Positions 11,695 through 13,908 of a stretch of DNA of 64,000 bases are shown in pieces (positions within the stretch are counted from its first letter, which is position 1; each line of letters begins with the position of its first letter). The stretch lies in NCBI RefSeq assembly GCF_009914755.1, contig NC_060938.1; one strand, 5' to 3'. The notes under the pieces were generated by a model. It searched no databases and was not told where the DNA came from. It worked only from the letters and a program-made list of their open reading frames with translations. The stretch comes from the human T2T-CHM13v2.0 reference genome, Homo sapiens. Both the position numbers and the translations under genes were made by a program.

Positions 11695-12200
11695 GACTCT
11701 TTATCTTGCAAGTGATAGAAAAGCAAACTCAAAATGACTTCACCATAAAGAAAACCAGAAAAGTCCAGGGGTAGGGCTGGCTTCAGGTGAGGCTTGATAT
11801 AGTGGCTCAAATGATGTCACCAAAGACTTAGGATCCCCCTCTCTGTCCTGCCTTGCATGGGAGGCTTCATTCTTAGGTGCACCTACCATGCATGGCAGGG
11901 CACTTGATGTGCTGATCTTTAACTAGAATTTTTTAAAAAGACAAGTCAACAATTTACAAGTTATTATTAGTCATGTATTTGTACTCGTACTGTTTACAAT
12001 TTAGGTATTGTAAATTGTAACCAATTTTGATGTTGTGCTGATCCTTAATTAGAATCTATGGCCAGGAGCTGGCTGGATGATGGGCTTAAATCCCACTCAA
12101 ACCAAACCACTAGGCTGAGAAGGGAGATTTCTCAAAAGAAATTTGGAATTATGATTCCCAAGAGAGAGGGTGGCTGTATGCTGAGCAAAGAATTGCACAT
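11695..12200. mobile_element. MLT1-type MaLR LTR hosting the 104-bp insertion
   Basis: ttgcaagtgatagaaaa.caaactcaaa...gtccaggggtagggctggcttcagg. Confidence 0.5.
11908..12055. repeat. 104-bp insertion flanked by 22-bp direct repeats; contains an inverted copy of 13829-13897
   Basis: tgtgctgatctttaactagaat (11908-11929) vs tgtgctgatccttaattagaat (12034-12055); reverse complement of 11935-12003 matches 13829-13897 at 65/69. Confidence 0.9.
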
Positions 12201-12501
12201 GTCACTATCCCAATGCCCTCCAGACTTTCTAGTGGCATTTCTTTTTTTTTTTTTTTCTATTTTGCTTCATCTGGGCAGCTAGAAATTATTTTGGTGTAAG
12301 AAGTGATCCAATTTATTATTTTCCAAATGGCTAAGTTGTTGTAACACCATTTATGTCTTTTCTCTGCTGATTGGAAATGCCATCTGTATCATAGATGGTG
12401 ACCATTTCTAGCAGTGTCTCAATGCACTGTAGGGTGAACTGTGTGAGTGTTCTCCCCTTTCTCACTACACATTTACTTTACCACCAAATATTCTATTTTA
12501 G

Positions 12502-12660
12502 AATAAACGACTGGAGGAAGTGAAAAGAGAAGAAAGAGAATTACTGGAGGCTCAGTCAATTCCCCTGAGAAACTATTTAATGACCTATGTGATGCCAACT
12601 CTTATTCAGGGCCTGAATGAATGTTGCAACGTCCGACCCGAAGACCCTGTTGATTTTCTG
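12502..12660 (+). CDS. AK7: Adenylate kinase 7, penultimate exon (Dpy-30 motif)
   Basis: ttttAG acceptor, GTAACA donor; 159 nt, phase 0-0; [53 protein letters not shown]; not in the ORF track, translated by hand. Confidence 0.95.
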
Positions 12661-12696
12661 GTAACATATTTAATTTTTAAAAAAAGATCAATTTGA

Positions 12697-13816
12697 GTTT
12701 GGGTGTGGCGGCTTACACCTGTAATCCCAGCACTTTGGGAGGCCAAGGTCAGGGGATCACTTGTGGTCAGGAGTTAGAGACCACCCTGCCAACATAGTGA
12801 AACCCCGTCTCTACTAAAAATACAAAAAAAAAAAAAAAATTAGCTGGGTGTGGTGGCACGCGCTGTAGTCCCACCTACTCAGGAAGCTGAGGCAGGAGAA
12901 TCGCTTGAACCCTGGAGGTGGAGGTTGCAGTGAGCCGAGATCACACCACTGCACTCTAGCCTGGACGACAGAGTGAGACTCCGTCTCAAAAAAAAAAAAA
13001 AAAAGAAAAAAAAAGAAAAAAAAATCTGCCTGAATCTTTTTTTTTTTTTTTGAGACAGAGTCTCACTCTGTCGTCCAGGCTGGAGTGCAGTGGCACGTTC
13101 TCGGCTCACTGCAACCTCCACCTCCCGGTTCAAGTGATTCTCCTGCCTCAGCCTCCTGAGTAGCTGTGATTACAGATGTGCACCACCACCCCAGGCTAAT
13201 TTTTGTATTTTTAGTAGAGACAGGGTTTCACCATGTTGGTCAGGCTGGTCTTGAATTCCTGACCTCGTGATCTGCCTGCCTCGGTCTCCCAAAGTGCTGA
13301 GATTACAGGCGTGAGCCACCACGCCTGGCCTAATCTGCCTGAATCTTAACAGAAAACCAGTTGAGATAGCAAAATTATGTTTCTGGTTCTTTGGGAAATA
13401 GCTTCTAATATATTCACCATTTATAATAAGATTTTTTTCCCTCATTGGTCAAACCCATGTAAGATTTTTATTATTCATTTGAAAGTAAAAAATGTATGTA
13501 CTTTTACTTATTTATTTATTTATTATTTATTTTGATATAGAGTTTCACTCTTGTTGCTCAGGTTGGAATGCAATGGCACAATCTCGGCTTACTGCAACCT
13601 CCACCTCCCGGGTTCAAGTGATTCTCCTGCCTTAGCCTCCCAAGTAGCTGGGATTACAGGCGCCTGCCACCACACTCAGCTAATGTTTTGTATTTTAGTA
13701 GAGAGGAAGTTTCACCATGTTGACCAGGCTGGTCTCGAACTCCTGACCTCAAGTGATCCACCCGCCTCAGCCTCCCAAAGTGCTGGGATTACAGGCATGA
13801 GCCACCAAGCTTGGCC
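12697..13816. mobile_element. Three Alus filling the last AK7 intron: 12697-13024 (+), 13037-13330 (-), 13502-13816 (-)
   Basis: Full dimers; 16-bp TSD aatctgcctgaatctt around the second. Confidence 0.9.
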
Positions 13817-13908
13817 CAGGATGATTTTTAAATTGTAAACATTACTAATACAAATACATGACTAATAATAACTTGTAAACTGTTGACTTGTCTTTTTTTA
13901 AATTGTAG

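What the first reader, a model, noticed from the sequence alone, without database searches (positions are those of the whole stretch)
11908..13908. Inverted copy of the AK7 terminal-intron branch point/pyrimidine tract planted in the previous intron
Seen: the reverse complement of 11935-12003 matches 13829-13897 at 65/69 nt without gaps, and neither copy looks like a known repeat. The target spans -80 to -12 of the last AK7 acceptor and covers all three plausible branch points (TACTAAT 13843, GACTAAT 13860, GTTGAC near 13883) and most of the T-tract. Both copies are on the same pre-mRNA and bracket the 159-nt phase 0-0 Dpy-30 exon. Inference: a roughly 70-bp long-range RNA duplex could mask the terminal 3' splice site until the upstream intron is removed (enforcing splice order), loop out the exon (in-frame loss of most of the Dpy-30 motif), favour back-splicing or attract ADAR. 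This would be a lineage-specific cis-antisense splicing switch; I know of no description of it.
Basis: partly seen in the sequence, partly recalled or inferred. Interest (0 to 1): 0.8.

Follow-up and report, generated by a model that had tools for sequence, protein, structure and literature searches.

The report
Inverted acceptor copy in AK7 intron
A stretch of about 75-80 bases from the end of the last AK7 intron was copied backwards into the previous intron long ago, almost certainly as a DNA-copying accident; it could fold the pre-mRNA over the final splice site, but no effect on splicing has been shown.

Summary
The reverse complement of 11935-12003 matches 13829-13897 at 65/69. The match extends to 68/74, and with one gap it reaches the acceptor AG at 13908. 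A search of the whole T2T genome finds only these two copies.

The upstream copy lies in a 97-nt insert (11930-12026). The insert is flanked by 26/29-nt direct repeats, has a 6/7 microhomology at one junction and a 23-nt fold-back filler at the other. That is the signature of a template-switch or templated-insertion mutation. Divergence dates it roughly to 15-65 My.

Thermodynamically the duplex is strong:
- dG is -82 to -98 kcal/mol.
- It is part of the global MFE of 2.6 kb of pre-mRNA.
- Mean pair probability is 0.92.
- It buries two of three branch-point candidates, the pyrimidine tract and the AG.

No tool here can show RNA-level effects, conservation or selection. The proposed exon loop-out conflicts with masking the acceptor that skipping needs. 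Inverted Alus that pair about three times more strongly also bracket the exon.

Verdict: a real, unique templated-insertion scar that makes a latent long-range RNA duplex. It is a new member of known kinds. A regulatory switch is possible but unproven.

The parts
11904..11929 (+). Left direct repeat (DR-L, 26 nt): the original target sequence, up to the point where copying left the template. Its last 7 nt (11923-11929) are 6/7 complementary to 13902-13908.
   Evidence: Local alignment of DR-L with DR-R: 24 of 26 identical plus a 3-nt indel. Junction microhomology from the gapped alignment.
11930..12003 (-). Inverted copy of the 3' end of the last AK7 intron (74 nt; the AK7-sense reading is on the minus strand)
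   Evidence: 68/74 complementary to 13829-13902. The six non-complementary positions are 11933, 11934, 11952, 11984, 11986 and 11990. Only two copies in the genome.
12004..12026 (+). 23-nt filler at the far junction. 12008-12023 resembles 13826-13841 in direct orientation (14/16), or equally the reverse complement of part of the new copy (11/11). This is a fold-back or second-switch signature.
   Evidence: The filler occurs only once in the window at up to 3 mismatches.
12027..12055 (+). Right direct repeat (DR-R, 29 nt): a duplicate of the target made when copying returned 26 nt behind the departure point
12502..12660 (+). AK7 penultimate coding exon (159 nt, phase 0-0, 53 codons), bracketed by the two arms. 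It is 498 nt downstream of the upstream arm and 1168 nt upstream of the downstream arm.
   Evidence: AK7 is described as having a C-terminal Dpy-30 domain (passages of PMC10056885). My own Pfam test was not run.
13829..13908 (+). Source of the copy: the last 80 nt of the terminal intron, with three branch-point-like motifs, the pyrimidine tract and the acceptor AG
   Evidence: Nearly unstructured on its own (-2.3 kcal/mol).
13909..15030 (+). Terminal AK7 exon (coding to 13947)
   Evidence: Supplied annotation; reading frame checked
11401..11684 (-). Alu-like element A (antisense) in intron 16, complementary to element B
   Evidence: Inverted pairs I1, I7, I11 and I13. Cofold net -268.6 kcal/mol. 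The name 'Alu' comes from my recognition of the sequence, not from a tool.
12700..13004 (+). Alu-like element B (sense) in the last intron. In the MFE it pairs with its neighbour, element C.
13037..13336 (-). Alu-like element C (antisense)
13536..13816 (-). Alu-like element D (antisense), ending 12 nt before the source arm. It contains the annotated alternative acceptor, which gives an exon start at 13562.
   Evidence: supplied annotation (exon 13562-15030 of other transcripts)

Best explanation
A single old mutation copied the last 74-80 nt of AK7's terminal intron, in reverse complement, into the preceding intron 1.9 kb upstream.

The pattern fits a template switch during replication or repair (the four-point / FoSTeS-MMBIR kind, or polymerase-theta-like templated insertion):
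1. Synthesis left the template at 11929, using a 6/7 microhomology with 13902-13908.
2. It copied the opposite strand from about 13902 back to 13829.
3. It made a short fold-back (the 23-nt filler).
4. It re-entered the original template 26 nt behind where it left, which duplicated 11904-11929.

The result is a two-copy, non-repeat inverted pair that brackets the penultimate exon. In the pre-mRNA the arms are predicted to form an AU-rich duplex of about 80 bp. The duplex covers two of three branch-point candidates, the pyrimidine tract and the AG of the last acceptor.

Shown here: the anatomy, the uniqueness and the thermodynamics. Inferred: the mutational mechanism, the age (tens of millions of years) and everything at the RNA level.

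My commitment is that it is a neutral or nearly neutral scar. Normal AK7 mRNA uses this acceptor, so the duplex is avoided or unwound often enough. If it does have an effect, the likeliest are slower removal of the last intron, a shift to the Alu-derived acceptor at 13562, some A-to-I editing, or back-splicing. Exon skipping is the least likely.
For: - The inverted match is 65/69 and 68/74, and reaches the AG with one gap.
- Only the two arms are found in the 3.1-Gb genome, and there is no other copy in the window.
- Direct repeats 11904-11929 and 12027-12055 (24/26 plus a 3-nt indel) flank a 97-nt insert.
- There is a 6/7 junction microhomology and a fold-back filler.
- Template switching that creates reverse-complement repeats and RNA stems, with four switch points and no need for pre-existing repeats, is described in PMC5453318 and PMC8794818 (passages read).
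- Duplex energy is -82.2 kcal/mol (74 nt) and -97.6 (11905-12025 with 13810-13919).
- In the MFE of 11350-13960, 66 of 74 upstream-arm bases pair with the downstream arm.
- Blocking the upstream arm costs 71.6 kcal/mol.
- Mean pair probability is 0.924, with 63 of 69 pairs above 0.9. A13865, A13886 and the acceptor AG are paired at 0.99 or more.
- Arguments for neutrality are inference. The RefSeq 'selected' transcript uses both exons. A 264-kb sample contained 2 low-copy inverted pairs of 40 nt or more within 5 kb, so such pairs are not rare as a class.
Against: - No outgroup genome could be examined. The empty site, the direction of copying and the age are therefore inferred only from the flanking repeats and from 6 differences in 95 nt.
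- A predicted pair probability of 0.92 and the absence of any competitor for either arm argue that the duplex should form. A duplex over a branch point, pyrimidine tract and AG would be expected to matter, and PCCRs in general avoid branch points (PMC8052449). 'Neutral' is therefore not shown.
- Three of the four mismatches in the 69-mer fall within 7 nt, on the best branch-point motif, and leave A13848 unpaired (P = 0.005). This could be a trace of selection to keep a branch point open. The clustering alone has P about 0.066.
- Equilibrium folding ignores proteins, helicases and co-transcriptional splicing.
Confidence: 0.7

Rival explanations
1. One reading: a selected, lineage-specific cis-antisense splicing switch. 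The duplex masks the terminal 3' splice site until the upstream intron is removed (enforcing splice order), or loops out the Dpy-30 exon, in a regulated way.
For: The duplex is strongly predicted and covers the branch points, pyrimidine tract and AG. Neither arm has a competitor elsewhere. The mismatch cluster opens the best branch-point motif. Complementary arms around exons lower exon inclusion and promote skipping and back-splicing in other genes (PMC8052449 passages; PMC8330042 abstract).
Against: - There is no evidence of conservation, RNA contacts or isoforms. None of the 9 papers holding 'AK7' and 'circRNA' is about an AK7 circRNA by its title (only PMC8185705 was opened; there AK7 is in a gene list), and neither of the 2 holding 'AK7' and 'A-to-I' concerns AK7 editing by its title.
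- Skipping needs the masked acceptor.
- An excised lariat would stay base-paired in trans.
- The exon carries Leu673 (codon CTG at 12544-12546). A Leu673 missense change causes male infertility (PMC10056885), so loss of the exon would probably be loss of function.
- Stronger inverted Alus already bracket the exon.
Confidence: 0.1
2. An unselected by-product. The scar is not maintained by selection, but the duplex forms in a fraction of transcripts and has measurable side effects: a detained last intron, use of the Alu acceptor at 13562, hyper-editing by ADAR, or a single-exon circle 12502-12660.
For: The same thermodynamic results. An alternative exon start at 13562, outside the duplex, is annotated; it replaces the last 12 codons with 19 Alu-encoded codons and a stop. 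That long near-perfect dsRNA is an ADAR substrate is established knowledge, recalled and not tested here.
Against: No RNA data were available. A 159-nt exon is short for a single-exon circle (recalled). Intron 16 may often be spliced before the downstream arm is transcribed. Helicases and hnRNPs may prevent pairing.
Confidence: 0.3
3. RNA-templated origin: a fragment of AK7 pre-mRNA or excised intron was reverse-transcribed into a break in intron 16 (L1-type or repair-type retro-insertion).
For: The insert is AK7-sense on the minus strand. It ends near the 3' end of the intron, finishes in a short A run, and is flanked by direct repeats like a target-site duplication.
Against: The A run is only 5-6 nt and can be derived from the T/A run of the source. 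The nick site (GAAT|CTAT on the plus strand) does not resemble the L1 endonuclease preference (recalled consensus). A 26-29-nt duplication is long for L1. The fold-back filler fits DNA template switching better.
Confidence: 0.07
4. Two members of an unrecognised old dispersed repeat, or the terminal inverted repeats of a DNA transposon, that happen to lie in opposite orientation.
For: NCBI's mask reaches 13842, 14 nt into the downstream arm (supplied annotation). The genome tool warns that its counts are lower bounds.
Against: Whole-genome searches at E up to 10 returned only the two arms for 13827-13908 and for the insert part of 11690-12500. The same search did detect a 78-84% dispersed repeat at 11758-11831, so its sensitivity was adequate. 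The 94% identity between the arms, with no third copy, is not a repeat-family pattern. The direct repeats flank one arm only, and a conserved coding exon lies between the arms.
Confidence: 0.03

Closest known systems
Template-switch mutations (four-point model; FoSTeS/MMBIR; Loytynoja and Goldman 2017, PMC5453318; Monttinen and Loytynoja 2022, PMC8794818)
   Same: It is a reverse-complement copy of nearby sequence made in one event. It has microhomology at a switch point, needs no pre-existing repeat, and creates an RNA stem de novo.
   Different: The published scans are restricted to short range, tens of bases, and explicitly do not model long-range or multiple switches. Here source and target are 1.9 kb apart, the copy is 74-80 nt, there is a second fold-back, and a 26-nt target duplication was made. 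The stem is a long-range intron-intron duplex, not a hairpin.
Intronic reverse-complementary matches or inverted Alus flanking circularised or skipped exons (for example PMC8330042)
   Same: The complementary arms lie in the two introns that flank one exon. The pair is non-repetitive and predicted to be stable.
   Different: One arm is the branch point, pyrimidine tract and acceptor of the next exon, so pairing blocks the acceptor that skipping would use. No circular or skipped AK7 product is documented in what I searched.
Long-range pre-mRNA structures: PCCRs (Kalmykova et al. 2021, PMC8052449) and PHRIC structures (PMC10691357)
   Same: It lies within 10 kb, is far below the -15 to -30 kcal/mol thresholds, is close to a splice site and overlaps the pyrimidine tract and acceptor.
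   Different: PCCRs are defined by conservation and tend to avoid branch points and exon loop-outs. This pair covers the branch points, loops out an exon and is probably young. AK7 is absent from that paper's main text and from the 3 supplements held. The PHRIC supplements could not be opened.
Competing docking/selector structures (Dscam1, ATE1; PMC7797038 and PMC12962786 seen only as search listings)
   Same: Long-range base pairing decides which splice site is available.
   Different: Those systems have several arms competing for one partner and are deeply conserved. Here there are only two arms, no competitor and no mutually exclusive exons.

Membership tests
   Genome searches with 11925-12034, 11690-12500 and 13827-13908 return only the two arms for this sequence. 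In the window self-BLAST, hit depth reaches 1 across the upstream arm and at most 3 across the downstream arm (means 1.0 and 1.1). Caveat: the tool's counts are lower bounds.
Dispersed repeat / transposable element | Canonical ends: poly-A tail with a short target duplication, or terminal inverted repeats with a fixed-length target duplication around the whole element | tested here: not met
   Only a 5-6-nt A run is present. The direct repeats are 26/29 nt and flank one arm only, and an exon lies between the arms.
Template-switch / templated-insertion mutation | The inserted segment is a reverse-complement copy of nearby sequence on the same chromosome | tested here: met
   68/74 match, with the source 1825 nt away
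Template-switch / templated-insertion mutation | Microhomology at a switch point, and a return point that explains the flanking duplication | tested here: met
   6/7 microhomology between 11923-11929 and 13902-13908; 26-nt duplication 11904-11929 / 12027-12055
Template-switch / templated-insertion mutation | An empty (pre-insertion) site in an outgroup or ancestor | not testable with these tools
   No primate or other mammalian genome is available. One search's output states that the window's genome 'has no relatives here'.
Reverse-complementary matches flanking a back-spliced or skipped exon | Stable complementary arms in both flanking introns | tested here: met
Reverse-complementary matches flanking a back-spliced or skipped exon | An observed back-splice or skip junction that depends on the arms | not testable with these tools
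   No RNA data are available. Going by titles, none of the 9 papers holding 'AK7' and 'circRNA' is about an AK7-derived circRNA. Only PMC8185705 was opened; there AK7 appears only in a gene list.
Pairs of conserved complementary regions (PCCR) | Both arms in conserved blocks, with compensatory substitutions | not testable with these tools
   No alignments are available. AK7 is not in the main text or in the 3 held supplements of PMC8052449.
Docking/selector-type splicing switch | Alternative arms competing for one partner | tested here: not met
   There are only two copies in the genome and in the window.

The most novel reading that the evidence does not exclude
The insert is a primate-specific cis-antisense brake on AK7's terminal acceptor. 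By sequestering the branch points, pyrimidine tract and AG, it detains the last intron or diverts splicing to the Alu-derived acceptor at 13562. That would tune how much AK7 with an intact Dpy-30 C-terminus is made in ciliated cells and testis. Afterwards the source arm acquired three clustered substitutions (13842, 13846, 13848) that created a perfect UACUAAU branch site inside an internal loop of the duplex, as compensation. A single DNA template switch would then have created a splicing regulator in one step, followed by an adaptive repair.
Probability: 0.1. Interest if true: 0.65.

Novelty: new member of a known kind. Interest (0 to 1): 0.35.

Why it matters
If the duplex forms in cells, this is a clean natural test case for long-range RNA structure in splicing. 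It is a unique, non-repeat, near-perfect antisense copy of about 80 nt of a gene's own terminal branch point, pyrimidine tract and AG. It was made in one mutational step, in a gene needed for cilia and sperm flagella. It would also extend template-switch mutation from local hairpins (reported for rRNA and miRNA stems) to kilobase-range intron-intron pairing.

If it has no effect, that is informative in a smaller way. It would show that an -80 to -100 kcal/mol duplex over a constitutive acceptor can be tolerated. Either way, it is one locus of a class that my rough sample suggests is common. I found 2 low-copy inverted pairs in 264 kb. By my own extrapolation that means on the order of 10^4 in the genome, with perhaps about a hundred touching an acceptor region by chance.

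Tried and rejected
- Pfam scan of the AK7 C-terminus to test the 'Dpy-30 exon' label. I dropped the step, so the label rests on the annotation and on PMC10056885.
- Rfam on 11000-15100: 0 families at gathering score.
- Origin of the 23-nt filler elsewhere in the window: no other copy at up to 3 mismatches. Its template is ambiguous between 13826-13841 in direct orientation (14/16) and the new copy itself (11/11).
- Target-site duplication of Alu-like element D, to order it relative to the copying event: only an 8-nt match, uninformative.
- Literature on AK7 isoforms, editing and circles: nothing relevant. One search was badly posed (2 of 3 terms required), and none of its 10 listed papers holds 'AK7'.
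- Rejected idea: the copy boundary coincides with the Alu boundary. The Alu-like element ends at 13816, 12 nt before the arm.
- Rejected idea: the clustered mismatches are strong evidence of selection. Clustering alone has P about 0.066. The 0.004 for hitting that particular motif is post hoc.
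Full report
**1. The observation**

- The reverse complement of 11935-12003 matches 13829-13897 at 65 of 69 positions without gaps.
- The repeat finder extends the pair to 11930-12003 against 13829-13902: 74 nt, 92% complementary, 1825 nt between the arms (68/74).
- A gapped alignment carries it from 11923-12003 to 13829-13908, ending on the acceptor AG.
- The six non-complementary positions of the 74-mer are 11933, 11934, 11952, 11984, 11986 and 11990.
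- The downstream arm is -80 to -12 (extended, to -1) of the exon that starts at 13909.
All lie in an 87-nt zone free of AG, 13820-13906.
- Exon 12502-12660 is 159 nt and phase 0-0, and skipping it keeps the frame.

**2. Chance and copy number**

- Searching the window's own 3.1-Gb genome with 11925-12034, with 11690-12500 and with 13827-13908 returned only the two arms for this sequence (E about 2e-21).
- The 811-nt query did pick up five 78-84% copies of an old dispersed repeat at about 11758-11831. Diverged repeats were therefore detectable.
- The tool warns that its counts are lower bounds and that very common words are skipped.
- In a self-BLAST of the 64-kb window, this is the only low-copy inverted pair of 40 nt or more.
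- In a pooled 264 kb (the window plus 200 kb from 0.5-0.7 Mb upstream on the same chromosome, fetched) there were 2 such inverted pairs within 5 kb: this one, and a weaker 65-nt, 84.6% pair in L005.
- As a class, however, low-copy inverted pairs are not rare. My extrapolation from 2 per 264 kb is on the order of 10^4 per genome. About 0.5% of the genome lies within 80 nt of an acceptor, so roughly a hundred chance overlaps would be expected. This is inference from a very small sample.

**3. What it is at the DNA level**

The upstream arm is part of a 97-nt insert, 11930-12026.
- Direct repeats flank it: 11904-11929 (26 nt) and 12027-12055 (29 nt), 24/26 identical plus a 3-nt indel.
- At the left junction, the last 7 nt of the left repeat (CTAGAAT) are 6/7 complementary to ATTGTAG at 13902-13908, which is a microhomology.
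- At the other end of the copy lies a 23-nt filler, 12004-12026. It is unique in the window.
- The core of the filler resembles 13826-13841 in direct orientation (14/16), or equally the reverse complement of part of the new copy (11/11). Either way, it marks a turn-around at the end of the copied tract.

The simplest history has four steps:
1. A nascent strand left its template at 11929.
2. It re-primed by microhomology on the opposite strand near 13902 and copied back to 13829.
3. It folded back for a few bases.
4. It re-entered the original template 26 nt behind the departure point.

This is the logic of the four-point template-switch model and of FoSTeS/MMBIR. Such events create reverse-complement repeats without needing pre-existing ones (passages of PMC5453318). 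They have been proposed as the origin of RNA stems (PMC8794818; a paper on de novo miRNAs, PMC10710096, was seen only as a search listing). The published scans were limited to short range and single switches. This would be a 1.9-kb, two-switch example.

The direct repeats flank only the upstream arm, and the downstream arm is a working acceptor region. The upstream arm is therefore the derived one, so 'planted' is a fair word.

Alternatives:
- An RNA-templated insertion is less parsimonious. The A run is only 5-6 nt, the nick site is a poor match to the L1 preference (the consensus is recalled), and there is a fold-back filler.
- A pair of transposon ends is contradicted by copy number and by the exon between the arms.

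**4. Age**

- There are 4 differences in 69 nt, or 6 in 95 nt when the direct repeats are included.
- These give Jukes-Cantor distances of 0.060-0.066. That is about 30-66 My at 1.0 to 0.5 x 10^-9 per site per year (rates recalled).
- If the three clustered differences arose in the event itself, the estimate falls to about 17-33 My.
- With so few events the interval is wide. 'Primate-age' is an inference, and lineage specificity was not tested because no other mammalian genome was available.

**5. What it could do at the RNA level**

Energies:
- The arms are AU-rich (20-23% G+C) but long. The duplex energy is -82.2 kcal/mol for the 74-mers and -97.6 for 11905-12025 with 13810-13919.
- Alone, the arms are almost unstructured (-7.2 and -2.3 kcal/mol).

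Folding of 11350-13960 (2.6 kb):
- In the minimum-energy fold, 66 of 74 upstream-arm bases pair with the downstream arm.
- In the same fold, Alu-like element B pairs with its neighbour, element C, at 265 positions.
- Forcing the upstream arm to be single-stranded costs 71.6 kcal/mol.
- In the equilibrium ensemble, the mean probability of the in-register pairs is 0.924, and 63 of 69 pairs exceed 0.9.
- A13865, A13886 and the acceptor A and G are paired at 0.99 or more.
- A13848, inside the mismatch cluster, is unpaired (P = 0.005).

These are equilibrium calculations on naked RNA. They say nothing about proteins, helicases or the race with splicing.

**6. Why I do not adopt the 'switch' reading**

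- Exon skipping would need the acceptor at 13908, which the duplex buries. The duplexed state cannot be the skipping-competent state.
- Removing intron 16 does not release the acceptor. The lariat would remain base-paired in trans until it is unwound or degraded, so splice-order enforcement is not automatic.
- The exon is already bracketed by inverted Alu-like elements, 11401-11684 against 12700-13004. Their net pairing energy is -268.6 kcal/mol, and two more antisense copies lie downstream. In the MFE, however, element B is captured by its neighbour C.
- The exon matters. Codon 673 lies in it: CTG at 12544-12546, numbered on a recalled protein length of 723 residues. A Leu673 missense change causes flagellar defects and infertility (PMC10056885 passages).
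- The reference transcript uses this acceptor, so masking cannot be complete.
- Nothing I could search documents an AK7 circle, editing or isoform tied to this region. AK7 is absent from the main text and from the three held supplements of the PCCR catalogue. The PHRIC supplements could not be opened.

**7. What remains open**

- PCCRs as a class avoid branch points and exon loop-outs, and looped-out exons are less included (PMC8052449). That makes a tolerated duplex over a constitutive terminal acceptor mildly surprising.
- If there is an effect, three seem most plausible to me:
  - slower removal of the last intron;
  - diversion to the annotated acceptor inside Alu-like element D (exon start 13562). 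This site lies outside the duplex and would replace the last 12 codons by 19 Alu-encoded codons and a stop;
  - editing or back-splicing as by-products. Reverse-complementary matches promote both back-splicing and skipping in C. elegans (PMC8330042, abstract).
- Three of the four mismatches in the 69-mer lie within 7 nt, on the TACTAAT motif. Clustering alone has P about 0.066. The 0.004 for hitting that motif is post hoc. Outgroup sequence would tell whether these changes arose in the source after the insertion, which would be a hint of compensation.

**8. Verdict**

- The object is a real, two-copy inverted duplication with the anatomy of a template-switch or templated insertion (confidence about 0.85 for that origin).
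- It creates a strong latent long-range RNA duplex over the terminal acceptor of AK7.
- It belongs to known kinds: template-switch mutations, and intronic complementary arms or long-range pre-mRNA structures. I file it as a new member, not a new category.
- A selected splicing switch is not excluded (about 0.1). No evidence for it could be obtained here.

**9. Limits**

- The name 'Alu' is my recognition of the sequence and of NCBI's masked intervals. No repeat library was available.
- My Pfam test of the Dpy-30 label was not run.
- Mutation rates, the L1 nick preference, ADAR substrate rules and the AK7 protein length are recalled, not taken from calls.

Noticed in passing
window 13536-13816, acceptor before 13562: The annotated alternative exon start at 13562 lies inside an antisense Alu-like element, directly after '...ctcag', with the element's T-rich tail upstream. 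This is the usual layout of Alu exonisation (recalled). Spliced from 12660, it would replace the last 12 AK7 codons with 19 Alu-encoded codons and a stop.
   Followed up: partly
window 11401-11684, 12700-13004, 13037-13336, 13536-13816: Four Alu-like elements (-, +, -, -) surround exon 12502-12660. Pairwise net cofold energies are -235 to -269 kcal/mol. In the 2.6-kb MFE, the single sense copy pairs with its immediate antisense neighbour, 34 nt away.
   Followed up: partly
window 13842-13848 / 11984-11990: Three of the four mismatches in the 69-nt match cluster within 7 nt, on the TACTAAT motif. All three are C on the plus strand of the upstream copy. They leave A13848 in a small internal loop. 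Which arm changed is unknown.
   Followed up: partly
window 11758-11831: An old dispersed repeat lies just upstream of the insertion site. There are five copies of 78-84% identity on contigs C8, C5 (three) and C3. The family was not identified.
   Followed up: no
window 55611-55785: A low-copy tandem direct duplication of about 86-90 nt at 80% identity, in a PAPOLA intron.
   Followed up: no
L005 6409-6473 and 6918-6982 (G000:C14:90026409-90026982): The only other low-copy inverted pair in the 264-kb sample: 65 nt, 84.6% identity, 444 nt apart. Its nature is unknown; it could be the ends of an old small transposon or another template-switch scar.
   Followed up: no
L004 3412-3538 and 9045-9219; L014 4475-4583: Three young (95-98%) low-copy tandem duplications of 53-84 nt in the background sample.
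   Followed up: no
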